DNA of 64,000 nt from sequence record HM114315.1. One strand, 5' to 3'. The notes beneath the pieces were generated by a model. The model worked only from the letters and a program-made list of their open reading frames with translations. It did no database searches and was not told the DNA's origin. This DNA comes from Acinetobacter phage 133. The first letter of the stretch is position 1, and every line of letters begins with the position of its first letter. Below are positions 24,479 to 39,676 of this stretch, in pieces. The position numbers and the translations under genes are program-made.

Positions 24479-24732
24479 GTCGCAATGACCAAAATTGCCA
24501 CCACGTCAACAATGGTCGTAGCCCGCATAATTCGCGATGAGTGCTTATTTCCATTGTTAACAGTGTACATTTCGCCATCAATGGTGCTCATCGGGAAGTC
24601 ATTGTCTTTGTGGCGAACCCAGAGGACCATCTTTGACCCTTGATGACGAACTGATACAATTTTAACAAATGTCATCATAGACCAGAGCCAGATATATTGT
24701 CCAGATTTGAAGTGCTTAAACTTTGAACTCAT
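24451..24732 (-). CDS. hypothetical protein with C-terminal transmembrane helix
   Basis: 93 aa; C-terminal VVAILVIATCLYVW. Confidence 0.35.
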   Translation of the reverse strand: MSSKFKHFKSGQYIWLWSMMTFVKIVSVRHQGSKMVLWVRHKDNDFPMSTIDGEMYTVNNGNKHSSRIMRATTIVDVVAILVIATCLYVWKTL

Positions 24733-25834
24733 TTTGGTTCTCCGCTAGTTGAGTTAAGAAATATTCTGATACTTCCTTTGCATATACATGCTCGATCAGG
24801 TCGTACCAATAATCAAGGTCTACTTTATCGCGCCATCCATCCAAAGCACGTTTTTTGGCCAAGTTATCTACTTTCTCAACCAGTGTATCTAAATGTGTCT
24901 GAACGTCCGTAAACGGAATTATACCTTGTTTAATTTGAAGCAAATAATCAGCATATGGTAACGGGTAAACAATATCACCATTCGTGTAAATGTCTTCCAA
25001 TTGCAACCCACCACGGATTGCATGGTGTAATGATTTCCAATCGATGCCTTCATTTCGCTCGGCCTGGCGTGCTCGTTCTCCATAATCATTCCACTTACGG
25101 TTTACAGCATGTTTGAATCGCTTCACCGATAATGTACTTTGATACGCAGAACCCAATACTTTAAAGTACAAACCTTCGTTCACGGTGTCCATGAATGCAT
25201 ACTCCGGATCAATCGGAGCTTGGTCAAAGAAATCACCGATCAATGTGTCTTGGTGCATAACCCCATCCTGGAACGTCACATTTTTAATTCGCTTGTCACC
25301 TTCCACATAAAGATCTACTGGTTTTGTTTCGGGTAACGTAGCAGCCCAATCTTTAACTGTACGTAACGCACCAAGGCGCGAACCTTTGATTCCGTACTTC
25401 GCTGCTTGTCGCTTGACATAACCCAAGTATGCTTTCATGCTCGTAGTATAGAACAAATGCCGACGACTCTGAATCAATGTCCAAATATGGCCATATGTCG
25501 GGTCCAGTTCGACCATGTTCTCTGGTGCATGAAGCATGTCAATTGCAATAGTTTCGCCTTTGAATGCCATTTCCAGGAATGCCTGAAGGCTGAAGTATTC
25601 TTCATCTACGTCCTGGGCCGTATTTTTTACTTCATCGCTCGCAGTATTATGCAAGATGTTCTTTTTAACGTTGCCCATAAGAATGTCACGAGGCTCAGGA
25701 ATATAAATGCCCTTGTAGTCCGTGTCAGACTCTGGAGTTGAAGTTCCATATAGTTTAGAACCAAATTGTACGCGCATAATAAGTTTCATTATTTTCTCTC
25801 TACTGAAAAACGGATTCGTGTGGTTTCCCGACAC
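24716..25834 (-). CDS. Pol-beta superfamily nucleotidyltransferase (predicted)
   Basis: 372 aa. N-terminal GS-x9-DxD signature (QFGSKLYGTSTPESDTDYKGIYIP) typical of minimal nucleotidyltransferases. The remainder is alpha-helical. Confidence 0.5.
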   Translation of the reverse strand: MSGNHTNPFFSREKIMKLIMRVQFGSKLYGTSTPESDTDYKGIYIPEPRDILMGNVKKNILHNTASDEVKNTAQDVDEEYFSLQAFLEMAFKGETIAIDMLHAPENMVELDPTYGHIWTLIQSRRHLFYTTSMKAYLGYVKRQAAKYGIKGSRLGALRTVKDWAATLPETKPVDLYVEGDKRIKNVTFQDGVMHQDTLIGDFFDQAPIDPEYAFMDTVNEGLYFKVLGSAYQSTLSVKRFKHAVNRKWNDYGERARQAERNEGIDWKSLHHAIRGGLQLEDIYTNGDIVYPLPYADYLLQIKQGIIPFTDVQTHLDTLVEKVDNLAKKRALDGWRDKVDLDYWYDLIEHVYAKEVSEYFLTQLAENQNEFKV

Positions 25835-29295: not shown

Positions 29296-29637
29296 TTAGC
29301 CAGTATAATAAAATGCGGAAATAATAGCAATCACAATAAAGTGCAATGCCTGGTCCACATGCAAATTAATTTTACCTTCGCATTTTAATGTGTCAATTAC
29401 CCAGTGAGTAACGAACATGAATAGGCCTAGATATAGGCTTTTGGTAATTAACAAAACTGGCAGTGCATGGATTGCAGCATGTGCAGTAATACAATGTAAC
29501 CAAAACTCATTTGGACCATCATTTACCCAACGAGCTTTATATTTTGCGATAAAGTCACCTTGCAGAGGATAATCACATAAAAAGTGAATGGCCATAAAAA
29601 CAGCAAAGATATAAAATAAATTTTCGTAGTCCATCAT
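29296..29637 (-). CDS. membrane protein
   Basis: 113 aa, 3 to 4 hydrophobic helices. Confidence 0.4.
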   Translation of the reverse strand: MMDYENLFYIFAVFMAIHFLCDYPLQGDFIAKYKARWVNDGPNEFWLHCITAHAAIHALPVLLITKSLYLGLFMFVTHWVIDTLKCEGKINLHVDQALHFIVIAIISAFYYTG

Positions 29638-30062
29638 TTTTCCTTTTTCCTGAGGCGGCCCTCAGTCATTTTAGTATACCAATCCATATAGAAAAATGGA
29701 TCTTGCATTTTAAGTTGAAATCTACGAGAAGCATATTCAGATCTGGCTTGTCGATCTTCTTTAGACAGTGTTTGATTGACATAATCAAATCCGCCTTTGC
29801 CTCCCAATTTAACATTGTATGTATCTGGCCTAGTCAGAAATTCTTCGGTTACAATGCTAGCTTCATGTTTGTACATGTCTTCCTGATTATAGTGCACCTT
29901 TAAAATCTCAGTATGGAAATTTTCAGGACCATACTTTTTAATTGCAGTTTTTAAAACTTTACCTGAACCAAGGTAATTGTCATATAAGTTTGACGTTTTA
30001 TGCACACCAACATAAAAATTTCCATTCTTGATGTTGGTGGTTTTATACGTAAAGTAGAACAT
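29634..30062 (-). CDS. GIY-YIG homing endonuclease, short form (catalytic domain only)
   Basis: FYFTYKTTNIKNGNFYVGVH...YLGSG GIY-YIG core. Only 142 aa, so it lacks the C-terminal DNA-binding region seen in the 228-aa paralog. Confidence 0.55.
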   Translation of the reverse strand: MFYFTYKTTNIKNGNFYVGVHKTSNLYDNYLGSGKVLKTAIKKYGPENFHTEILKVHYNQEDMYKHEASIVTEEFLTRPDTYNVKLGGKGGFDYVNQTLSKEDRQARSEYASRRFQLKMQDPFFYMDWYTKMTEGRLRKKEK

Positions 30063-30104: not shown

Positions 30105-30398
30105 TTATTTAACGAGCTTGTCCAATGCAGAAGGGTCTACTTCCAACACATGCTGGACAGTTTTGCCGCTATACTTGCCACGAGCAACATAGATTTTACT
30201 ATTATGTACTTCAGCCGGGCTTTCACCAACAACCGATGGGACCATAATAGTTGACACTGTTGGATCAAGGCTTGCCATTGAAACATTTTTACCGTTGAAT
30301 CGGAAGTTCGCAGATTCATGCAATTCAGTGAATGATTTCATAATTGTTCCAGGTTTAAAAATATATTTACAGAATAATAAAAATCGCTTCGGGATCAA
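30105..30398 (-). CDS. hypothetical protein
   Basis: 97-aa ORF; the true start may be MKSFTEL (about 30341). Confidence 0.3.
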   Translation of the reverse strand: MIPKRFLLFCKYIFKPGTIMKSFTELHESANFRFNGKNVSMASLDPTVSTIMVPSVVGESPAEVHNSKIYVARGKYSGKTVQHVLEVDPSALDKLVK

Positions 30399-30804
30399 CT
30401 AAGCTGTATAAGTGCATAATCGTACGATTTCGCTTATTATGGTTCGTATGATCCTGAAAGTACATACCCTGGAAGTCAATAAACACTCGTTTGACATAAG
30501 AAAGGTCTTGGCCTCTCAAACAATTTGCGTGGTGTCGACCAATTGAGAACCTAGCAAGTTTCGGTGAAATTGAATCAGCGAACTTATCAGACTCTTTTGA
30601 CAGTGGGCCCACGTACATATCCGTATGAGGATTCAATGTCTGCTTTAACTGTTCAACAATGAATTTTTTAGAACAACTCGGCAATGCAACCATACGAGTT
30701 GCCACAACATCCATGTAACTTGGGCCAGTGTAATAACGAGTGTATTCAGACTCTGGTGTTAGTTCAAGTGTTAGTTCATTCAAAATATTTTGTAGAATGC
30801 TCAT
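30367..30804 (-). CDS. hypothetical protein, paralog of 32555..33004
   Basis: 145 aa. Shares NPxTDxxVG and LRGxQ...R.F.D blocks and an identical-style C-terminal end (IFIIL versus IFVVV) with the 149-aa protein. Confidence 0.4.
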   Translation of the reverse strand: MSILQNILNELTLELTPESEYTRYYTGPSYMDVVATRMVALPSCSKKFIVEQLKQTLNPHTDMYVGPLSKESDKFADSISPKLARFSIGRHHANCLRGQDLSYVKRVFIDFQGMYFQDHTNHNKRNRTIMHLYSLVDPEAIFIIL

Positions 30805-31750: not shown

Positions 31751-32077
31751 TTATCCTCGTAATTTCTTTGCGTTGAGTATCATATAACCGTCTAGATCAA
31801 AGTGAAACATTCCGAGCATTGACGCTGTGGGGTCGCCTGCAGAAGAGTATACTTCATAAATGGCATAGTCATAATCCATATCGGAATTAATATATTTAAC
31901 CAAGTATTTCCCCGGTTCTAAAATAGGGTCTTGATTTATTCTAAACGGCGGGTCATATACAATATCCGGACCCAAATTGATTTTAGGGTCAAAGGTATAA
32001 CCTACGTTAATATATTTAATATCATTATGATCCATTTTCAGATCAGGCAACAAATTGACCACCGACCAGGTGGGCAT
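31751..32077 (-). CDS. hypothetical protein
   Basis: 108-aa ORF. Confidence 0.35.
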   Translation of the reverse strand: MPTWSVVNLLPDLKMDHNDIKYINVGYTFDPKINLGPDIVYDPPFRINQDPILEPGKYLVKYINSDMDYDYAIYEVYSSAGDPTASMLGMFHFDLDGYMILNAKKLRG

Positions 32078-32224
32078 CGTTTGAATAGAGACATAACGCT
32101 TTTGTCCATTATTAAGACACGCAATAAAACCAGTGATATTTGGATTTTTTACTTACATCCGGAAGTTTATAGAAATCGGATGGGTAAATTTGGCGTTCTG
32201 TATACATAACAAATTCCTCATTAA

Positions 32225-32295
32225 TTTAGGACAATATTAAACCAATAAAAATAAAAACGTAAAACCCTAAAACGAAAAACGGCCCGAAGGACCTT
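32225..32295. repeat. intergenic repeat copy C
   Basis: caatattaaaccaataaaaataaaaacgtaaaaccctaaaacgaaaaa plus an imperfect GGCCCgaaGGACC hairpin. Confidence 0.6.
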
Positions 32296-32324: not shown

Positions 32325-32555
32325 TCAGACTGTTTTAATCTGTTCTGTTAACCAGGCGGCAACACGTTTTTCAAGGCGAGACATAGCCTCATTTTTATTT
32401 CTGACTGAGCCGTGTTCAGTCCCACAACAAGCAGTTAAACCAGACGGGATATGCGTTAATCGGCATCCAGTAGGGGCTCTATTTAATTCTGTCCAAGCTC
32501 GTCCAGTTCGGTACCATTCCACTCGTATATCGCAAGCATCTAAAACATTCATCAT
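32325..32555 (-). CDS. release-factor domain-3 (GGQ domain) homolog lacking the GGQ motif
   Basis: 76 aa. DIRVEWYRTGRAWTELNRAPTGCRLTHIPSGLTACCGTEHGSVRNKNEAMSRLEKRV aligns with RF1/RF2 DLRIDxxRxSGAGGQHVNxTxSAVRITHIPTGIVVxCQxxRSQHKNKxxAM, with GGQ replaced by RAW. Confidence 0.5.
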   Translation of the reverse strand: MMNVLDACDIRVEWYRTGRAWTELNRAPTGCRLTHIPSGLTACCGTEHGSVRNKNEAMSRLEKRVAAWLTEQIKTV

Positions 32556-33004
32556 TATACCACCACAAAAATAACATTAGGATTACCTAATAATGCCATG
32601 AATTCATCAAGCATTTGCATAGTGCGGCGTACTATTTTAGTATTGCGTCCCAACATAGATGACATGGACACATCCATAAAAATACGAGTCATGCTTTTAA
32701 CTTCTTGTCGCCCGCGAAGCCCATCCGTATTAACTGTATTAATAGTCGAATATAAAAACTTCTTATGTCCCAATCTACGCTGGAAGTCTTCAACCATACG
32801 TAAATTCATTCCAACAAATAAATCAGTATTGGGGTTGAATATCTCAGCAAGTGCCCGAGTTGCACCATATTGTCTAGACGCGGAACATATTGTAGTGCGT
32901 AATTCAAATAATGCTTGCTCTCGATCAACCAAATGAGACATTTGTTTTAAATTGGTTTCCATACGGGGCTGGACTGTATCCAGGTGGTCTTGTAAGTAAT
33001 TCAT
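32555..33004 (-). CDS. hypothetical protein, paralog of 30367..30804
   Basis: 149 aa; see the paralog entry. Confidence 0.4.
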   Translation of the reverse strand: MNYLQDHLDTVQPRMETNLKQMSHLVDREQALFELRTTICSASRQYGATRALAEIFNPNTDLFVGMNLRMVEDFQRRLGHKKFLYSTINTVNTDGLRGRQEVKSMTRIFMDVSMSSMLGRNTKIVRRTMQMLDEFMALLGNPNVIFVVV

Positions 33005-33226: not shown

Positions 33227-33664
33227 ATGAAAACTTTAAACACAAACAACGTATTCTTTGCTTTAAACATGTTCTTCGCTGTTGTTGAATTAACAAATGC
33301 GCCGGCTGTTGAATCTGATATTACAGTACGTGCTGATATGTTACAACATCTTAGCGTTACTCAATTGGTTCAAATTGCGAAAAGCATGAACCCAGAGCTC
33401 AAAGTTAACAACAAGCAAAGTCGTGAAATTATCCTAACTGCCATCGAAGCTGAAATGGTTAACTATAACGTTAGAACGGTTGCATCTAAAACTGCTTCAG
33501 GAACTACTAAATCAATCTGCTGGGATGCGTTTGCTACTATCGATATGAGCAATAAAGAAGAAGGCCGCAAAATGGTTGAAAAACTTATTGCTGATCATGG
33601 GTTTTCAAAAGCAGTTGTTCAATCTTATGCTTCTGATTATCGTAAAGCACACCGCACTGCTTAA
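33227..33664 (+). CDS. hypothetical protein, lone plus-strand gene
   Basis: 145 aa. Has its own sigma70-like promoter and intrinsic terminator. N-terminus begins MKT. Confidence 0.45.
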   Translation: MKTLNTNNVFFALNMFFAVVELTNAPAVESDITVRADMLQHLSVTQLVQIAKSMNPELKVNNKQSREIILTAIEAEMVNYNVRTVASKTASGTTKSICWDAFATIDMSNKEEGRKMVEKLIADHGFSKAVVQSYASDYRKAHRTA

Positions 33665-33679
33665 TTCCAGATAGAACAA

Positions 33680-33704
33680 AGGCCTCAATTGAGGCCTTTT
33701 ATTT
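33680..33704 (+). terminator. intrinsic terminator
   Basis: GGCCTCAATTGAGGCC hairpin followed by TTTTATTTT, immediately after the stop at 33664. Confidence 0.6.
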
Positions 33705-33860: not shown

Positions 33861-33937
33861 GGCGGCGCCGTGAAGGACTCGAACCCTCGATGGCGGATTT
33901 GGAATCCGCAGTGTTTCCAACTACACTAACGACCCTT
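33861..33937 (-). tRNA. tRNA-Trp(CCA)-like, possibly degenerate
   Basis: D-arm GTGT/ACAC. Anticodon arm GCGGA-TTCCAAA-TCCGC. T-arm GAGGG-TTCGAGT-CCTTC. The acceptor stem has a G-G mismatch and an irregular 3' tail. Confidence 0.3.
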
Positions 33938-33939
33938 AA

Positions 33940-34626
33940 TTATTTAAACATTTTTCGACCTTTAATCCAACCTTTCGGAATAGGGTCATTTTTATTTATT
34001 CGAGTAGATTTTCGCTCTTCTAAAGAGTGAATCCACATTTTACCAAACTGTGAATTTTTTTCGCCTTTCTGATGTTCTATTTCTGTAAAGGTTTTCTTGA
34101 CTTTTTCAATCGATTCAGGCTTATGTCTTCGTCCCGACCACGGGTGACCGTTTTTATCGAAAGCATCTTTTATTGAATTTGAAACAAGTTCTCTATACCC
34201 TGGGTTAGTCCACATTTTTATAGCAGATAAGCTCATATTAGAAATAAACTTTTCGTTATAGCCTGGTATTTCCAACCTTTTCCGCTGCCGTGCATTTCCA
34301 GCAAGACGTGCTCTTTTACTCATTTCTTGAGCGTCTTTATTCAGATGATCCCAACCGCCTTGTCCACCCAATTTAATATTGTAAGTATCAGAACGATCAA
34401 TAAAATCCTGGTCAACAATTAAAGATTCAATTTCAAACATCTCTTCTTCAGAATCGTGCATCATCAAAATATCTTTCTTGAAATTTTCGATACCGTGTTT
34501 TGAAATAGATCTTTTTAAAATTTTACCTGAGCCCATGTAGCCGTCTTCAAGATTTGCGGTCTTATGAACTCCGACATAAATTTTACCATTTATCAAGTTG
34601 GTAATCTTGTACGTGTAAAAATGCAT
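33940..34626 (-). CDS. GIY-YIG homing endonuclease (full length, Seg-like)
   Basis: HFYTYKITNLINGKIYVGVH...YMGSG..NIKLGGQGG. 228 aa with a basic C-terminal DNA-binding-like region. Sits next to the tRNA cluster, as T4 segB does. Confidence 0.65.
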   Translation of the reverse strand: MHFYTYKITNLINGKIYVGVHKTANLEDGYMGSGKILKRSISKHGIENFKKDILMMHDSEEEMFEIESLIVDQDFIDRSDTYNIKLGGQGGWDHLNKDAQEMSKRARLAGNARQRKRLEIPGYNEKFISNMSLSAIKMWTNPGYRELVSNSIKDAFDKNGHPWSGRRHKPESIEKVKKTFTEIEHQKGEKNSQFGKMWIHSLEERKSTRINKNDPIPKGWIKGRKMFK

Positions 34627-34680
34627 GAGTATCCTCGAATTGTAACGTTACAAGGATATTTATACTCATGCAATAATTTG

Positions 34681-34755
34681 GTGGTAATTGGTGGACTCGA
34701 ACCACCGACCTACGGATTATGATTCCGCTGCTCTACCTACTGAGCTAAACTACCG
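34681..34755 (-). tRNA. tRNA with CAT anticodon (Met or Ile2), copy 1
   Basis: Folded by hand. Acceptor GGTAGTT/AATTACC. D-arm GCTC..GAGC. Anticodon arm GCGGA-ATCATAA-TCCGT. T-arm GGTGG-TTCGAGT-CCACC. Confidence 0.65.
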
Positions 34756-34759
34756 GAAG

Positions 34760-34831
34760 CGAGGACACGATTTGAACGTGCGCGTAAGAGGTTATGAGCC
34801 TCTCATTCTACCAGGCTGAAGTTACCTCGCA
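34760..34831 (-). tRNA. tRNA with CAT anticodon, copy 2
   Basis: Anticodon arm AGAGG-CTCATAA-CCTCT. T-arm GCACG-TTCAAAT-CGTGT. Acceptor GCGAGG/CCTCGC. Confidence 0.55.
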
Positions 34832-34926
34832 ATAATTTGGACGGGTTTTTGAATTTAAGTACGGACTGATTGGTCATGCTAAACTTAAATCCGTGGATTT
34901 CCTGCAATCCACATGCCATGTGCGCA

Positions 34927-35002
34927 ATTGGCAATTTGGCAGACCCGACGGGTTTCGATCCCGCTACCTCCCGCGTGACAGGCGGGTGCTCTTCCGATTG
35001 AG
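34927..35002 (-). tRNA. tRNA-Asp(GTC)
   Basis: Anticodon arm CCCGC-CTGTCAC-GCGGG. D-arm GCTC..GAGC. T-arm GCGGG-ATCGAAA-CCCGT. CCA encoded. Confidence 0.65.
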
Positions 35003-35018
35003 CTACGAATCTATAATT

Positions 35019-35231
35019 TTACATCAAACATAAACTTGTAGCAACCCATTGATTTTGACGGGTCACATGATCAGTAGCGCTTGTTTCATTTGATACTCTA
35101 TGCCCAATTGGACTGGAAATATCTGGTTTTGATGAACGGTGCCCAGTTAAAATACCGGGTATTTTAACTGTTCGATTTGGATAACGAACTAGGCTAAAAT
35201 CTTTCTTGAGCTCGGATTCATATAAACTCAT
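35019..35231 (-). CDS. hypothetical small ORF within the tRNA cluster
   Basis: 70-aa ORF between tRNA-Asp and tRNA-Gln; coding status uncertain. Confidence 0.2.
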   Translation of the reverse strand: MSLYESELKKDFSLVRYPNRTVKIPGILTGHRSSKPDISSPIGHRVSNETSATDHVTRQNQWVATSLCLM

Positions 35232-35249
35232 CTTATACTCACTTAAAAA

Positions 35250-35324
35250 ATGGAAGTCGCAAAAGGAATCGAACCTTTACTAACAGAGTCAAATTCTGTG
35301 GTGCTACCGTTACACCATGCGACA
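35250..35324 (-). tRNA. tRNA-Gln(TTG)
   Basis: Anticodon arm ACAGA-ATTTGAC-TCTGT. T-arm AAAGG-TTCGATT-CCTTT. Weak 1:72 pair. CCA encoded. Confidence 0.65.
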
Positions 35325-35417
35325 ATTATTAGTTTTTGATCTGTTGAACTATAACAACAGCTCGATGGTAAGTTCATCGAGTCTCAAGAAGTGTATTTCT
35401 ACACTTAGACTAAAATT

Positions 35418-35494
35418 GGTCTCCCATGTTGGATTTGAACCAACGACATCTTCTTTCCAAAAGAAGTAGGCTACCAGACTGCCCTAATGAGAGA
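35418..35494 (-). tRNA. tRNA-Pro(TGG)
   Basis: Acceptor CTCTCAT/ATGGGAG. D-arm GGGC..GCCT. Anticodon arm CTTCT-TTTGGAA-AGAAG. T-arm GTTGG-TTCAAAT-CCAAC. CCA encoded. Confidence 0.7.
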
Positions 35495-35499
35495 TAAAA

Positions 35500-35575
35500 T
35501 GGTCGTCGAGGCTGGATTCGAACCAGCGACCACCGGATTATCGGTCCGATGCTCTACCAACTGAGCTACTCGACG
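35500..35575 (-). tRNA. tRNA-Ile(GAT)
   Basis: Acceptor CGTCGAG/CTCGACG. D-arm GCTC-AGTTGGTA-GAGC. Anticodon loop CCGATAA. T-arm GCTGG-TTCGAAT-CCAGC. CCA encoded. Confidence 0.65.
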
Positions 35576-35820
35576 GTAATATGTACTTTATTGTCAATGC
35601 GTACTATTCGGAACTTGCCATGGGGCAAATAAAAAACATCATAAGACTTACCACAGTATAAAACGGGTTCACGTATAACTGGGGCATTTGAATATTGTTC
35701 TTCAATGCAGTTAAATCCATGATTACGAAGTTGTTGAACAACTTCAAGTGATGTTTTATGACAGTGTTTAATAACAAGGCCAGGTTTTGTTCTAAATAGA
35801 CCAAACATAAAAATACTCAC
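35566..35820 (-). CDS. hypothetical small protein within the tRNA cluster
   Basis: 84-aa ORF. Confidence 0.3.
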   Translation of the reverse strand: MSIFMFGLFRTKPGLVIKHCHKTSLEVVQQLRNHGFNCIEEQYSNAPVIREPVLYCGKSYDVFYLPHGKFRIVRIDNKVHITVE

Positions 35821-35823
35821 AAT

Positions 35824-35915
35824 ATGGAGGTAAGACTGGGATTCGAACCCAGGGACGCCCGAAAGCGTCAGTGGTTTTCAAGACCACCGCAATAAGCCAG
35901 ACTCTGCCACCTTAC
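35824..35915 (-). tRNA. tRNA-Ser(TGA), long variable arm
   Basis: 92 nt. Anticodon arm GTGGT-CTTGAAA-ACCAC. Variable arm TGACGCTTTCGGGCGTC. T-arm CTGGG-TTCGAAT-CCCAG. CCA encoded. Confidence 0.7.
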
Positions 35916-36223
35916 CATTATTAGCTAATTAAACCTCAACGAGGAAATCTTACGCTAGACAAGTTACCCTTCCCGGGATTGCCTAAACACGGCCTGGATT
36001 ATTAGTCCACGCTATAACGGATTTTACAAATTATGTCGGTTAATGATCATAAATCACTAAACGAAATAATCTAAATGTGCCTACCAGGAAAGCAAATTAC
36101 GTGCAAGCACAACCTGGTCATTGGTCACATACTGTTAGGGTTGCTCCAAACCGACTAAGGTTCGTAAGGCCCCAGATTGTGTTCATCATCGGCTGATCAA
36201 TGCCTAGAAACAATCTTAACAAT

Positions 36224-36299
36224 TGGCTCCCCAGGTACGGTTCGAACGTACGACCAACGCAGTAACAGTGCGTCGCTCTACCAACTGAGCTACTGAGGA
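36224..36299 (-). tRNA. tRNA-Asn(GTT)
   Basis: D-arm GCTC-AGTTGGTA-GAGC. Anticodon arm ACGCA-CTGTTAC-TGCGT. T-arm GTACG-TTCGAAC-CGTAC. CCA encoded. Confidence 0.7.
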
Positions 36300-36305
36300 A
36301 TAATC

Positions 36306-36381
36306 TGGTGCCGTCACTAGGATTCGAACCCAGGACCTGACGATTACAAATCGCCTGCTCTACCATCTGAGCTATAACGGC
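36306..36381 (-). tRNA. tRNA-Thr(TGT)
   Basis: Acceptor GCCGTTA/TGACGGC. Anticodon arm GGCGA-TTTGTAA-TCGTC. T-arm CTGGG-TTCGAAT-CCTAG. CCA encoded. Confidence 0.7.
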
Positions 36382-36382
36382 A

Positions 36383-36459
36383 TGGTGTTCATACGGGGAT
36401 TTGAACCCCGGTTACCAACGTGAAAGGCTGGCGTCCTAGACCGCTGGACGATATGAACA
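36383..36459 (-). tRNA. tRNA-Glu(TTC)
   Basis: D-arm GTCC..GGAC. Anticodon arm CCAGC-CTTTCAC-GTTGG. T-arm CGGGG-TTCAAAT-CCCCG. CCA encoded. Confidence 0.65.
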
Positions 36460-36544
36460 TGGCGAGTGTGGACCGAGTCGAACGGTCAGTGCTTGCGGCG
36501 GCGGATTTACAATCCGCTGGGGTTACCAATTTTCCTACACACTC
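36460..36544 (-). tRNA. tRNA-Tyr(GTA), long variable arm
   Basis: Acceptor GAGTGTG/CACACTC. Anticodon arm GCGGA-TTGTAAA-TCCGC. T-arm GACCG-TTCGACT-CGGTC. CCA encoded. Abuts tRNA-Glu with no spacer. Confidence 0.65.
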
Positions 36545-36571
36545 AATATACGTTTATTTATAACGCAAAAA

Positions 36572-36647
36572 TGGACCCCCTCACAGGACTCGAACCTGTA
36601 TAAATCGCAATAGAACTACGATGCCTAATCCATTCGGCCAGAGAGGG
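36572..36647 (-). tRNA. tRNA-Arg(TCT)
   Basis: Acceptor CCCTCTC/GAGGGGG. Anticodon arm TCGTA-GTTCTAT-TGCGA. T-arm ACAGG-TTCGAGT-CCTGT. CCA encoded. Confidence 0.65.
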
Positions 36648-36743
36648 ATTATTAAGTTTAACCGCAATTTGGACAAGGGAAATAACGTACAGTTTGACCA
36701 CAACCTGAGCAATAATGCCCAATGGTAGAATAAATTTGATACT

Positions 36744-37091
36744 TCATTTTGATTTCCTTTTATTCCAATGACCTAAGTCTTTTATGTGAATAAGTGACTT
36801 AATTACGATAACGCCCGTGTCTTCGTAGTAGTTTCCGAAGTACGCAATGTGCTTTGACTTAGCGATAAAGGAGTTTTTCCCATATCGAGAGTCCCGCATA
36901 TTAACTTTACCCGGAGACATATGACTAGCCATATTAATTGTAGCAGTGGCGAAGTCATTGCGTAGAAAAACTACAGGATTAGTCAATTCATATTTTGACA
37001 TGAAAAGTTTGAAACGCTGAACGATTCGTTGTTTTGCATGACCTGAAAAGTGAACAGGAGCTCGACCGAAATTTGAAAACACTGGACTCAT
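36744..37091 (-). CDS. hypothetical protein within the tRNA cluster
   Basis: 115-aa ORF. Confidence 0.35.
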   Translation of the reverse strand: MSPVFSNFGRAPVHFSGHAKQRIVQRFKLFMSKYELTNPVVFLRNDFATATINMASHMSPGKVNMRDSRYGKNSFIAKSKHIAYFGNYYEDTGVIVIKSLIHIKDLGHWNKRKSK

Positions 37092-37363
37092 TCTAATTCT
37101 ACCAATTGTTTTCTTGTAATTTTCGCCGGTCGAAGCTTTAAAACTTTTTGACCTAATGCACCCGCATATATTACAACTAAAGAATGCGTGATATCTTCTA
37201 CAGTATAACGTACATTATCGGTGCAAATGTCATCAAGAGTATTCGCTTCGCGAAAGTCATCATCGGTTAAAACTAAACACGATGTACGTAAGTATTGTCG
37301 CTGTACTTCATTTAACATAATAAATTCCTCATAATATATCCGAGAGGGGAGCAATTGCAACAA
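37088..37363 (-). CDS. hypothetical protein within the tRNA cluster
   Basis: 91-aa ORF. Confidence 0.35.
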   Translation of the reverse strand: MLQLLPSRIYYEEFIMLNEVQRQYLRTSCLVLTDDDFREANTLDDICTDNVRYTVEDITHSLVVIYAGALGQKVLKLRPAKITRKQLVELE

Positions 37364-37379
37364 GACTCTCGGCTAATTT

Positions 37380-37467
37380 TGGCGGAAAGAAGAGGACTCG
37401 AACCTCAACCGATTTCTCAGTCCACTCGCTTAGCAGGCGGTGCATGTCCCATGACAGTTTACTTTCC
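37380..37467 (-). tRNA. tRNA-Ser(GCT)-like, long variable arm
   Basis: 88 nt. T-arm GAGG-TTCGAGT-CCTC. Acceptor GGAAAG/CTTTCC. Anticodon loop CTGCTAA in a stem with a bulged A. CCA encoded. The D-arm is atypical. Confidence 0.45.
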
Positions 37468-37474
37468 ATAATTT

Positions 37475-37550
37475 TGGAGGTGTCAACTGGACTCGAACCA
37501 GTATCGACGCGGATTTGCAATCCGCCGTATGACCATTCTACCATGACACC
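37475..37550 (-). tRNA. tRNA-Cys(GCA)
   Basis: Acceptor GGTGTCA/TGACACC. Anticodon arm GCGGA-TTGCAAA-TCCGC. T-arm ACTGG-TTCGAGT-CCAGT. CCA encoded. Confidence 0.65.
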
Positions 37551-37655
37551 ACGTAGAGGATTCAAACCTCTTAGCACTGTGCGGATTTACGTGAACCATT
37601 CTTTCAATGGAATCGAACCATATACGACCCAGGCAGCGCCTTCCACCTTGGTATT

Positions 37656-37731
37656 TGGAGCGGTTGACGAGATTCGAACTCGCGACATCTGACTTGGAAG
37701 GACAGCACTCTACCATCTGAGTTACAACCGC
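37656..37731 (-). tRNA. tRNA-Gly(TCC)
   Basis: Acceptor GCGGTTG/CAACCGC. D-arm ACTC-AGATGGTA-GAGT. Anticodon loop CTTCCAA (one T:T mismatch in the stem). T-arm GCGAG-TTCGAAT-CTCGT. CCA encoded. Confidence 0.65.
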
Positions 37732-37739
37732 AATTAATC

Positions 37740-37815
37740 TGGTGGGCCCAGCAGGACTCGAACCTGAAACCAACGGATTATGAGTCCGCTGCTCTGCCAA
37801 TTGAGCTATAGGCCC
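37740..37815 (-). tRNA. tRNA with CAT anticodon, copy 3
   Basis: Acceptor GGGCCTA/TGGGCCC. D-arm GCTC-AATTGGCA-GAGC. Anticodon arm GCGGA-CTCATAA-TCCGT. T-arm CAGG-TTCGAGT-CCTG. CCA encoded. Confidence 0.65.
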
Positions 37816-37820
37816 TTGTT

Positions 37821-38042
37821 TTATAACAAGTTATTATTGTAAAGCACAATATATGCACCTAACATTATTGCTTCAACTACTGCGATCATGTACAACAGAA
37901 CTAAAATCGCTTTGCGGACATGTTTTGTCCATTCTTCCATATTGGAAGGATTCATTTTATCTAAGGCCGAACATACCAAGCAACCTAGAACAGTATTTAT
38001 GGTCATGAGACCAATGAATACATAAAGAAGTTCAATTTTCAT
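37821..38042 (-). CDS. small membrane protein
   Basis: 73 aa, two hydrophobic helices. Confidence 0.35.
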   Translation of the reverse strand: MKIELLYVFIGLMTINTVLGCLVCSALDKMNPSNMEEWTKHVRKAILVLLYMIAVVEAIMLGAYIVLYNNNLL

Positions 38043-39187: not shown

Positions 39188-39676
39188 TTATTTATCGTCT
39201 GACCAATTATCATCCAATTCTTCAACTCGTTCATGATCAACAAACAAGTCAATATAGATGCCACCTTCAATATTAATCTTTTGTCCACCTAAGTTATAGG
39301 ACAAAGTAATATGAGGAGTATACTCAGGAAAGTCATATGTTGCACCCAAGATCATTGAGTATTCATGGCGTTCTTTAAGTTGATCAGAATTAAGCTTGAG
39401 TACCAGAGTTCGTCCGTATTTAGTATCCCAAATTTCTAGCTCACCAGAAATACCAGCGTAATAATTATTAAGCGGTCTAAACGGAATACCTACTCGTGAA
39501 TAACAAATGGTACAATGTAACTTTTCACGAGGAACCGGATTTAACAATCCGAGTTCCCTTTGAAATTTTTCAAGCTGATTTAGTGTAGAGTCACTAAAAT
39601 GGGCCGAGGCATAAGTACCTTTAGCCACCTTGTTCAAGCTCAACAGGTTGAGGGATAAGATCAGTGACTGCCGCAA
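39188..39676 (-). CDS. 57B: 2H-phosphoesterase, 57B/Acb1-like (anti-CBASS cyclic-oligonucleotide phosphodiesterase family) by motif and synteny
   Basis: Two H-x-T/S-x motifs (HCTICYS and HITLSY) about 60 aa apart. Sits immediately before 57A and gene 1, as T4 57B does. Confidence 0.5.
   Translation of the reverse strand: MRQSLILSLNLLSLNKVAKGTYASAHFSDSTLNQLEKFQRELGLLNPVPREKLHCTICYSRVGIPFRPLNNYYAGISGELEIWDTKYGRTLVLKLNSDQLKERHEYSMILGATYDFPEYTPHITLSYNLGGQKINIEGGIYIDLFVDHERVEELDDNWSDDK

What the first reader, a model, noticed from the sequence alone, without database searches (positions are those of the whole stretch)
32325..32555. 76-aa release-factor GGQ-domain homolog in which GGQ is replaced by RAW
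The ORF aligns position by position with the catalytic domain 3 of class I release factors (DIRVEWYRTG-RAWTELNRA-PTGCRLTHIPSGLTACCG...KNEAM versus DLRIDxxRSSGAGGQHVNKTxSAVRITHIPTGIVVECQ...KNKxxAM). It lacks the Gln-containing GGQ tripeptide needed for peptidyl-tRNA hydrolysis, and it lacks all other RF domains. Such a protein could occupy the ribosomal A site or peptidyl-transferase centre without catalysing release. That would amount to a decoy or modulator of termination or ribosome rescue. It sits beside the phage tRNA cluster.
Basis: partly seen in the sequence, partly recalled or inferred. Interest (0 to 1): 0.7.

Follow-up and report, generated by a model that had tools for sequence, protein, structure and literature searches.

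The report
Phage release-factor domain lacking GGQ
Acinetobacter phage 133 carries a small, conserved gene that copies only the peptide-releasing domain of bacterial release factors but has lost the catalytic GGQ motif, so it most likely binds the ribosome or an RNA without cutting; its actual role is untested.

Summary
Window 32325-32555 (minus strand) encodes a 76-aa protein homologous to domain 3 of class I release factors (RF2 in PDB E=1e-7; family profile vs full-length RFs 99.8%, E=1.5e-29; AlphaFold model on ribosome-bound RF2, TM 0.82, rmsd 1.8 A). GGQ is absent and the loop is one residue shorter. The window is Acinetobacter phage 133. The gene is already annotated 'RF-1 domain peptide chain release factor' (phrog_20323). 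That label overstates its function.

New findings:
- All five Acinetobacter T4-like lineages examined carry a GGQ-less copy near their tRNA genes.
- In phage 133 the gene overlaps the stop codon of an orphan 149-aa gene and is followed by a terminator-like hairpin.
- Against a syntenic relative, these two genes are about 50% identical while most flanking genes are 75-99%. Both are still under purifying selection (pN<pS, z=4.8 and 5.7).
- Stand-alone phage RF domains exist with and without GGQ. The losses are repeated, and Trp often replaces the motif.

The 'non-catalytic ribosome binder' reading is plausible but untested, and the protein has no anchoring domain. I found no paper describing this. 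Verdict: new variant of a known kind, moderate interest.

The parts
32325..32555 (-). CDS of the 76-aa stand-alone release-factor domain-3 homolog without GGQ (phage 133 member of phrog_20323)
   Evidence: ORF; 100% identical to the NCBI protein 'RF-1 domain peptide chain release factor [Acinetobacter phage 133]'; RF homology; fold; pN 0.32 vs pS 0.68 against the L063 ortholog, z=4.8
32469..32507 (-). Codons 17-29: the loop that replaces the GGQ loop (TGRAWTELNRAPT), one residue shorter than in RF1/RF2, with W21 where the second Gly would be
   Evidence: Alignments; lowest-confidence part of the model; W21, L24, N25 and P28-C31 are conserved in the L063 ortholog; Trp is enriched in GGQ-less loops
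32555..33004 (-). CDS of the 149-aa orphan partner protein (Acj133p134; phrog_20652). Its stop codon overlaps the mini-RF start codon
   Evidence: ORF; PHROG hit E=1.6e-66; no Pfam, PADLOC or PDB match; co-diverges with the mini-RF at 51% identity, dN 0.45, z=5.7; homologs precede the mini-RF in L063, ZZ1 and Ac42
32553..32557 (-). TAATG overlap of the partner stop codon and the mini-RF start codon (translational coupling), preceded by GGTGG
   Evidence: Sequence; junction GTGGTGGTATAATGA is identical in L063
33011..33016 (-). Shine-Dalgarno AAGGAG of the partner gene, within a leader that is 92% identical to L063
   Evidence: Sequence; identity profile
32281..32293 (-). Terminator-like hairpin GGTCC-TTCG-GGCC followed by a T-run, about 30 nt after the mini-RF stop codon; it closes the two-gene unit
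   Evidence: Consensus scan; conserved and stronger in L063 (GGTCC-TTCG-GGACC + TTTTTT)
33864..37815 (-). Context only: cluster of 16 tRNA genes upstream on the same strand. Functional linkage is not shown
   Evidence: ARAGORN; the same neighbourhood occurs in L063, Ac42, ZZ1 and Berthold

Best explanation
The ORF is a real gene for a stand-alone, catalytically dead copy of the release-factor peptidyl-hydrolase domain (domain 3 of RF1/RF2). It belongs to a small family kept near the tRNA genes of Acinetobacter T4-like phages, and every member examined lacks GGQ. In phage 133 it is made from a two-gene unit together with an orphan 149-aa protein. The unit has a strong SD, overlapping stop and start codons, and its own terminator-like hairpin. 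Both genes change much faster than their neighbours but remain under purifying selection. The most likely mechanism is inferred, not shown. The retained three-stranded sheet and long basic helix would still dock in the 50S A-site pocket used by RF and ArfB domain 3. The shortened loop, with a Trp in place of Gly-Gly-Gln, would reach toward the peptidyl-transferase centre or a tRNA CCA end but could not position the hydrolytic water. The protein would then act as a non-hydrolytic competitor or modulator of peptide release or ribosome rescue during infection, possibly needing the co-translated partner for affinity. Shown: homology, fold, loss of GGQ, conservation, selection, operon anatomy. Inferred: ribosome binding, competition, role of the partner.
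For: Identity and fold. GGQ is absent here and in all five Acinetobacter-phage lineages. The core motifs are kept: H35, N53 and A57 invariant; P37, G39 and L61 nearly so. The protein is basic like RF domain 3: net +3, pI 8.9, versus +5 for E. coli RF2 domain 3 and +2 for RF1 domain 3. Purifying selection: pN 0.32 vs pS 0.68, z=4.8. The two-gene cassette has a conserved junction and terminator. The divergent island coincides with the two ORFs. Trp recurs in place of GGQ: 14/30 GGQ-less vs 1/21 GGQ-containing representatives. ArfB's RF-type domain docks on the 50S A site (PMC7427801). Inactive RF homologs that act as A-site binders or structural parts are established or proposed (Dom34, baeRF-1, MRPS35; PMC6514570).
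Against: There is no experimental or direct computational evidence of ribosome binding. The protein has no anchoring domain. In ArfB most residues needed for binding and hydrolysis are in the C-terminal tail, which is missing here. The partner has no recognisable fold, and its model is unusable (pLDDT 54). The partner linkage is not universal: Berthold has the mini-RF only and ME3 the partner only. The retained motifs could reflect fold stability alone. The phage needs working ribosomes, so a general A-site blocker would be costly. In phage 133 the unit is separated from the tRNA genes by an opposite-strand gene and a terminator-like hairpin, so co-expression with the tRNAs is unlikely.
Confidence: 0.4

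Rival explanations
1. It is an off-ribosome RNA-binding protein. Like plant PrfB3, the GGQ-less RF domain has been re-used to bind an RNA end, for example phage tRNA or mRNA 3' ends. It would protect or mark that end rather than act in the A site.
For: PrfB3 is an RF2 homolog that lost SPF and GGQ. It binds the petB 3' UTR and protects it from 3'-5' exonucleases (PMC5897788). The phage gene is kept near tRNA clusters in five Acinetobacter-phage lineages. The protein is basic. An aromatic residue in the loop could stack on a base. The same region of the phage carries an RlaP RNA-repair nucleotidyltransferase.
Against: PrfB3 is a full-length RF2-like protein, not a 76-aa domain. tRNA proximity is not general for stand-alone phage RF domains: few of 59 viral loci have tRNAs within 3 kb. 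In T4-like phages the tRNA region is simply a variable region rich in small accessory genes (own knowledge).
Confidence: 0.2
2. It is a protein-level decoy or inhibitor in a phage-host arms race. The dead RF domain, with its partner, mimics host RF domain 3 to bind a host factor that recognises that domain. Candidates are the PrmC methyltransferase, a toxin, or a defence sensor.
For: The two-gene island is about 50% identical between phages whose flanking genes are mostly 75-99% identical. The leader and terminator are conserved, and dN is 3-10 times that of neighbours with similar dS. This pattern is typical of accessory or counter-defence genes. Acb1 (anti-CBASS) lies in the same region. GGQ has been lost repeatedly and independently in phage stand-alone RF domains.
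Against: No target is known. There is no PADLOC or anti-defence family hit. Overall dN/dS is about 0.3, so positive selection is not shown. High dS (about 1.5) also fits replacement by recombination with a distant allele.
Confidence: 0.15
3. It is a decaying relic of a once-active phage GGQ-domain gene, such as the 70-aa GGQ-containing phage proteins, and has no present function.
For: The catalytic motif is gone. The otherwise well-kept RSQ motif is also degraded in phage 133 (EHGSVRNK). The gene evolves fast. The gene immediately downstream is frameshifted in phage 133, which shows that decay occurs in this region.
Against: The reading frame is intact in five divergent lineages. pN is significantly below pS (z=4.8). 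The translational-coupling junction and terminator are conserved. The model is confident (pLDDT 83.5).
Confidence: 0.1
4. It is still a peptidyl-tRNA hydrolase that uses a non-canonical loop.
For: In class I RFs the Gln side chain is not strictly required; catalysis depends on the backbone amide and the loop conformation (own knowledge of RF mutagenesis). PDB holds ribosome complexes of GGS and GGD RF1 mutants. GGQ-containing stand-alone 70-aa phage proteins exist, so the scaffold can be compatible with activity.
Against: Both glycines are missing and the loop is one residue shorter. Gly substitutions reduce release by orders of magnitude (own knowledge). The loop sequence is highly variable among orthologs (RAWTELN, QQWLGLN, KHSNWVN, SQGHYLN, GARRWVN), which is unlike a catalytic site. 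There is no anchoring domain.
Confidence: 0.07

Closest known systems
Domain 3 (peptidyl-hydrolase, Pfam RF-1 PF00472) of bacterial RF1/RF2
   Same: Same fold and clear sequence homology over residues 6-71. THIPxG and (R)SxxxNKxxA motifs are retained. The long helix alpha7 is present.
   Different: No GGQ, and the loop is one residue shorter. Domains 1, 2 and 4 are absent, so it cannot read stop codons. The Pfam score is below the gathering threshold.
ArfB (YaeJ) / ICT1 stand-alone GGQ rescue factors
   Same: A release-factor hydrolase domain that exists without codon-recognition domains. That domain docks on the 50S A site.
   Different: ArfB keeps GGQ and has a linker plus a basic C-terminal helix that inserts into the mRNA channel and carries most residues essential for binding. 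The phage protein ends with alpha7 and lacks both. In sequence it is closer to RF1/RF2 than to ArfB-like phrog_3122 (E=0.003).
PrfB3 (plant plastid RF2 homolog)
   Same: A bacterial-type RF homolog that lost GGQ and was kept for a non-catalytic role (PMC5897788).
   Different: PrfB3 is a full-length RF2-like protein of plants that binds the petB 3' UTR. The phage protein is a 76-aa single domain of unknown target.
MRPS35 RF-like domain; Dom34/Pelota; bacterial aeRF1-like (baeRF-1) families
   Same: Catalytically inactive release-factor relatives lacking the Gln. They are used as structural ribosome parts or as proposed non-catalytic A-site binders, with unconstrained catalytic-loop length (PMC6514570). 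The phage family shows the same loop variability.
   Different: Dom34 and baeRF-1 have the unrelated archaeo-eukaryotic RF fold. MRPS35 is a eukaryotic mitoribosomal protein with flanking helical domains. None is a phage protein; that survey never mentions phage.
Stand-alone ~70-aa phage RF-domain proteins that keep GGQ (IMG/VR loci L019, L036, L042, L047, L059)
   Same: Same size and architecture, phage-encoded, and they match the same PHROG more weakly.
   Different: They retain GGQ (WPPRxxGGQHVG...) and so may be active. The phage 133 clade and several other small clades have lost it independently.
PrfH (RF-H), partner of the RtcB RNA ligase
   Same: A short RF paralog linked to RNA damage and repair; the model also superposes on PrfH domain 3.
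   Different: PrfH keeps GGQ and a codon-domain-like module of about 200 aa. The TIGR03072 hit is partial (21.9 bits vs cutoff 166.65). The 149-aa partner is not a diverged PrfH/PCRF domain (hhalign probability 1% or less).

Membership tests
RF-1 / release-factor peptidyl-hydrolase domain superfamily (Pfam PF00472) | Significant sequence similarity to RF domain 3 | tested here: met
   PF00472 E=2e-6; prfA 2.7e-8; PDB RF2 1e-7; family profile vs RF1/RF2 profile 99.8%, E=1.5e-29
RF-1 / release-factor peptidyl-hydrolase domain superfamily (Pfam PF00472) | Score at or above Pfam's curated gathering threshold (35 bits) | tested here: not met
   28.1 bits. The source database's precomputed Pfam column nevertheless lists PF00472 for this protein.
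RF-1 / release-factor peptidyl-hydrolase domain superfamily (Pfam PF00472) | Three-stranded sheet plus long helix alpha7 fold of domain 3 | tested here: met
   AF2 pLDDT 83.5, E10-15, E30-35, E41-44, H50-75; Foldseek RF2 8p16 TM 0.82, rmsd 1.8 A over 72 columns
Catalytically competent class I release factors (RF1, RF2) | GGQ tripeptide in the loop between strand 1 and strand 2 | tested here: not met
   No GGQ; the aligned residues are A20-W21-T22 or gap-W21-T22
Catalytically competent class I release factors (RF1, RF2) | Stop-codon recognition domains 2/4 (PCRF, PxT/SPF) and domain 1 | tested here: not met
   The protein is 76 aa and has no PCRF hit. The adjacent 149-aa protein is not a PCRF relative.
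ArfB / ICT1 rescue factors | GGQ motif | tested here: not met
ArfB / ICT1 rescue factors | Flexible linker and basic C-terminal helix that enters the mRNA channel | tested here: not met
   The protein ends within helix alpha7 at residue 76. The feature is described in PMC7427801.
PrfH (TIGR03072) | Full-length match above the curated cut-off and an RtcB neighbour | tested here: not met
   21.9 bits vs cutoff 166.65, partial match only; none of the neighbouring ORFs tested against Pfam gave an RtcB hit
phrog_20323 ('RF-1 domain peptide chain release factor', 73 positions) | Full-length profile match | tested here: met
   E=1.9e-38 over profile positions 1-73. ZZ1 1.1e-37, Ac42 4.3e-30, Berthold 9.8e-21 and L063 2.5e-20 match the same PHROG.
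Non-catalytic ribosomal A-site binders (functional class: Dom34, baeRF-1/Balon-like) | Binds the ribosomal A site or PTC without hydrolysing peptidyl-tRNA | not testable with these tools
   This needs ribosome-binding and release assays or cryo-EM. Only the loss of the catalytic motif and the retained fold are shown.

The most novel reading that the evidence does not exclude
The 149-aa orphan and the GGQ-less RF domain form a fast-evolving counter-defence module. The dead RF domain, with Trp in place of GGQ, plugs the 50S A-site/PTC pocket of ribosomes stalled by host tRNA- or rRNA-targeting immunity. It thereby blocks premature peptide release by host rescue factors (ArfB, ArfA-RF2, PrfH) or by an abortive-infection effector until phage tRNAs and RNA-repair enzymes restore decoding. 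That would make it an 'anti-rescue' factor, a class of phage protein not yet described.
Probability: 0.12. Interest if true: 0.85.

Novelty: new variant of a known kind. Interest (0 to 1): 0.55.

Why it matters
Release-factor domains without the catalytic glutamine are known from eukaryotic organelles (PrfB3, MRPS35) and, in the unrelated archaeal-type fold, from Dom34 and bacterial aeRF1-like proteins. A bacterial-type, stand-alone, GGQ-less domain kept by lytic phages does not appear in the survey of RF diversity I read or in any paper I could find. It would be the smallest natural pseudo-release-factor. If it does bind the ribosome, it gives a minimal natural tool for probing what domain 3 alone can do at the peptidyl-transferase centre. 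It would also be a new way for phages to tune termination or rescue. On the practical side, the current database label 'peptide chain release factor' for phrog_20323 is misleading. Annotation pipelines propagate it to new Acinetobacter phage genomes, some of which are candidates for therapy.

Tried and rejected
1. Recent capture of a host prfA/prfB/prfH fragment: rejected. Identity to Acinetobacter prfA is about 32% and to any RF 25-33%, and the gene is conserved in related phages.
2. Split release factor, with the upstream 149-aa protein as a diverged codon-recognition or PrfH N-domain: rejected. hhalign probability is 0.4-1.1% and there is no Pfam hit.
A profile search against PDB sequences found nothing.
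4. General linkage of stand-alone phage RF domains to tRNA genes: not supported. Few of 59 viral loci have tRNAs within 3 kb. The linkage is specific to the Acinetobacter T4-like phages.
5. Obligatory partner/mini-RF pairing: not supported. Berthold has only the mini-RF and ME3 only the partner.
6. RlaP (RNA-repair nucleotidyltransferase) association: seen near an RF-domain gene in L074 (375 bp), L040 (2.8 kb) and the 133/L063 lineage (6.5 kb) only. That is too few to call.
7. More 133-type orthologs: none in IMG/VR or JGI metagenomes; only one divergent allele exists (P0002, four contigs). Site-wise selection tests were therefore not possible.
8. Anti-defence or defence family membership: no PADLOC hit.
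9. Literature: seven searches on phage, GGQ-less and stand-alone RF domains found no description of this family. The nearest items are a remark that an RF-1-domain CDS is a core gene of some mycobacterial tRNA arrays (PMC5966550) and the Burroughs and Aravind survey, which does not mention phage.
10. A promoter for the two-gene unit: the sigma-70 consensus scan found no more sites than shuffled sequence, so none is assigned.

Full report
WHAT IS THERE. The window is Acinetobacter phage 133, a T4-like phage. The 76-aa product of the ORF at 32325-32555 (minus strand) is 100% identical to the NCBI protein 'RF-1 domain peptide chain release factor [Acinetobacter phage 133]'. Phage 133 itself is not in the phage collection I could search by DNA. 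The gene lies 1.3 kb downstream of a cluster of 16 tRNA genes on the same strand.

The similarity to domain 3 of class I release factors is significant by every independent test.
- Pfam RF-1 gives E=2e-6 over residues 9-68, although 28.1 bits is under the gathering score of 35.
- NCBIfam gives partial hits to prfA 2.7e-8, prfB 1.8e-7 and prfH 1e-4.
- phmmer against PDB sequences finds E. coli RF2 at 1e-7.
- A profile of the GGQ-less family against a profile of nine full-length RF1/RF2 proteins gives 99.8% probability, E=1.5e-29.
- An AlphaFold2 model built with a 67-sequence alignment is confident (pLDDT 83.5). It shows three strands and a 26-residue helix.
- The model superposes on ribosome-bound RF2, mtRF1 and RF1 domain 3 with TM 0.82-0.84 and rmsd 1.8 A over 72 columns.

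The protein contains no GGQ, and its only glutamine is Q72. All three aligners put the catalytic Gln opposite T22 and the second Gly opposite W21. The loop is one residue shorter than in RF1/RF2. No PCRF or codon-recognition domain is present, and no other RF-like ORF exists in the window.

IT IS A CONSERVED FAMILY, NOT AN ACCIDENT. The protein is a full-length match to phrog_20323 (E=1.9e-38). Small RF-domain genes of other Acinetobacter T4-like phages match the same PHROG, and all lack GGQ. Their loops are:
- ZZ1 (76 aa): RVGKHSNWVNTPDRG
- Ac42 (64 aa): RTESQGHYLNAYPKG
- Lazarusvirus group, e.g. Berthold (78 aa): RTGGARRWVNRPFNA

An exhaustive HMMER search of 1.84 billion representative proteins found only one close relative, P0002 (51% identical, 100 aa), which is also GGQ-less (YRTQQWLGLNK). 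P0002 lies on a 37.9-kb contig (L063) from a phage with the same gene order as phage 133 and the same number of tRNA genes (16) just upstream, so it is the positional ortholog. That criterion is not met: identity to Acinetobacter prfA is about 32%.

ANATOMY OF THE LOCUS. The mini-RF start codon overlaps the stop codon of an upstream 149-aa gene (TAATG), which has a strong Shine-Dalgarno (AAGGAG). About 30 nt after the mini-RF stop codon lies a terminator-like hairpin with a UUCG loop and a T-run. Both the junction and the hairpin are conserved in L063. Upstream lie an opposite-strand gene (33227-33664) and a bidirectional terminator-like hairpin (33678-33699). These separate the pair from the tRNA genes in phage 133. 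The pair is therefore probably its own transcription unit, although I could not assign a promoter. In ZZ1 and Ac42 the partner homolog follows the last tRNA gene directly on the same strand.

The partner (Acj133p134, phrog_20652) has no Pfam, PADLOC or PDB-sequence match. Its structure model is unusable. It is not a diverged codon-recognition domain. Partner and mini-RF overlap in 133 and L063, are adjacent in ZZ1, and are 1.2 kb apart in Ac42. Berthold has only the mini-RF and ME3 only the partner.

EVOLUTION. I compared the window with L063 gene by gene. Most flanking genes are 75-99% identical (dN 0.005-0.17). The mini-RF (49%, dN 0.42) and its partner (51%, dN 0.45) stand out together. A sliding identity profile shows the boundaries clearly:
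- the leader before the partner is 92% identical;
- both ORFs are 45-65% identical from about 32990 to 32320;
- the terminator region is 82-83% identical.

The divergent island therefore coincides with the two genes. Their dS (about 1.5) is at the high end for the region. Neighbours with equal or higher dS have 3-10 times lower dN, so part of the divergence is faster protein evolution. Replacement by recombination with a distant allele may also contribute. Both genes remain under purifying selection: mini-RF pN 0.320 vs pS 0.679, z=4.8; partner z=5.7. Between the two orthologs the loop keeps W21, L24, N25 and P28-C31.

THE WIDER PICTURE. Among 59 viral-contig loci fetched with a family profile I found several kinds of protein:
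- full-length RF1/RF2;
- PrfH-like and ArfB-like proteins;
- about nine stand-alone 68-76-aa proteins that keep GGQ;
- several stand-alone proteins that do not.

Nearest-neighbour analysis shows the GGQ-less proteins form several small clades, many with GGQ-containing closest relatives. The motif has therefore been lost repeatedly. Trp occurs in the replaced loop segment in 14 of 30 GGQ-less representatives against 1 of 21 GGQ-containing ones (Fisher p=0.0014). These representatives are not phylogenetically independent. A Pseudomonas-phage group (LPPA15, P0151-P0154) fuses the GGQ-less domain to a conserved C-terminal domain.

HOW IT MOST LIKELY WORKS. What is shown is a folded, selected, basic RF domain 3 with no catalytic loop and no anchoring domain. 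Its net charge is +3, against +5 and +2 for E. coli RF2 and RF1 domain 3. Canonical hydrolysis is very unlikely. Both glycines are gone, the loop is shorter, and its sequence varies freely among orthologs; this loop behaviour was also noted for inactive aeRF1-like families (PMC6514570).

The best-supported inference is a non-hydrolytic binder that uses the surface RF-type domains use to dock on the 50S A site (PMC7427801). It would act as a competitor or modulator of release or rescue, possibly with the co-translated partner supplying affinity. The main weakness is that in ArfB the residues essential for binding lie mostly in the C-terminal tail, which this protein lacks. I give this explanation 0.4. 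The rivals are:
- an off-ribosome RNA-end binder like PrfB3 (PMC5897788): 0.2;
- a protein-level decoy in an arms race: 0.15;
- a functionless relic: 0.1;
- a non-canonical hydrolase: 0.07.

COMPARISON WITH WHAT IS KNOWN, AND NOVELTY. The homology is already recorded in GenBank and PHROG annotation, and the Ac42 record notes 'similar to bacterial peptide chain release factor 1'. The published survey of RF diversity lists RF1, RF2, ArfB, PrfH, ICT1, C12orf65 and the inactive MRPS35, and never mentions phage. Seven full-text searches on this question found no description of phage stand-alone or GGQ-less RF domains. One paper notes an RF-1-domain CDS as a core gene of some mycobacterial tRNA arrays (PMC5966550).

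I therefore rate this a new variant of a known kind: a catalytically dead release-factor relative. The gene itself is already catalogued under a misleading name. Interest is moderate (0.55). It is a clean, conserved, fast-evolving pseudo-enzyme in a translation-related region of a phage genome, but its function is entirely untested.

Noticed in passing
window 30367-30804 (-): This is a paralog of the 149-aa partner gene; both hit phrog_20652 and share the NPxTD..VG, LRG and RVFID motifs. Unlike the partner (51%), it is 90% identical to its L063 ortholog, so only the copy coupled to the mini-RF evolves fast.
   Followed up: partly
window 31751-32207 (-): The gene just downstream of the mini-RF appears frameshifted in phage 133. 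The 31-aa ORF 32112-32207 (MYTERQIY...) matches the N-terminus of the intact 151-aa L063 ortholog, and the 108-aa ORF 31751-32077 matches the rest. They are in different frames with a stop codon between them. This could be decay, a sequencing error or programmed frameshifting.
   Followed up: partly
window 24716-25834 (-); L074 5588-6415; L040 4672-5538: Phage 133 encodes an RlaP-family RNA-repair nucleotidyltransferase (PF10127, E=5e-17) about 6.5 kb from the mini-RF. In two unrelated contigs an RlaP gene lies 375 bp (L074, next to a GGQ-containing 70-aa mini-RF) and 2.8 kb (L040) from an RF-domain gene. This may point to an RNA-repair link, but there are too few cases.
   Followed up: partly
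L070 182-252 (ZZ1); L002 4228-4302 (Berthold): The tRNA clusters of ZZ1 and Berthold each include a tRNA annotated 'tRNA-Pyl'. The ZZ1 record gives its anticodon as CTA and calls it a possible amber suppressor. Each lies a few kb or less from that phage's GGQ-less mini-RF. Phage 133 and L063 have no such tRNA.
   Followed up: no
L001 3001-3366 (Pseudomonas phage LPPA15); P0151-P0154: These GGQ-less RF domains (loop NSGSAWVPNYNG) are fused to a highly conserved ~55-aa C-terminal segment (WKPTKESFDNSTIRERTPGKPHIVFVAGYWRVSTWKRGTGDLYYKAH...) of unknown function. They occur in ~40-kb Pseudomonas phages and are annotated 'peptide chain release factor RF1'.
   Followed up: no
L019, L023, L028, L036, L042, L046, L047, L059, L060 (IMG/VR): This is a family of 68-76-aa stand-alone phage RF-domain proteins that keep GGQ (consensus WPPRxxGGQHVG..GVKVTHxPxG..RSQxxNRxIAxxMI..LTxPxxR). 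They have neither an ArfB-type tail nor codon-recognition domains. How such proteins could act on ribosomes is unclear.
   Followed up: no
window 39188-39676 (-): The gene at the T4 57B position is an Acb1 anti-CBASS phosphodiesterase homolog (PF23474, E=1e-49). The region flanking the tRNA cluster therefore carries known counter-defence genes.
   Followed up: no
window 33940-34626 (-) and 29634-30062 (-): GIY-YIG Seg-like homing endonuclease genes lie inside and beside the tRNA cluster. The one at 33940-34626 is only 61% identical to its L063 counterpart, which makes it another divergent spot.
   Followed up: no
window 37845-38021 (-): Another small gene at the far edge of the tRNA cluster is only 37% identical to its L063 counterpart (73 aa, dN/dS about 0.47), while its neighbours are 91-98% identical. 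It is a second fast-diverging island.
   Followed up: no
window 33678-33699: A perfect 9-bp-stem palindromic hairpin (AAAGGCCTC-AATT-GAGGCCTTT) lies between tRNA-Trp and the opposite-strand gene 33227-33664. It scores as terminator-like on both strands.
   Followed up: no
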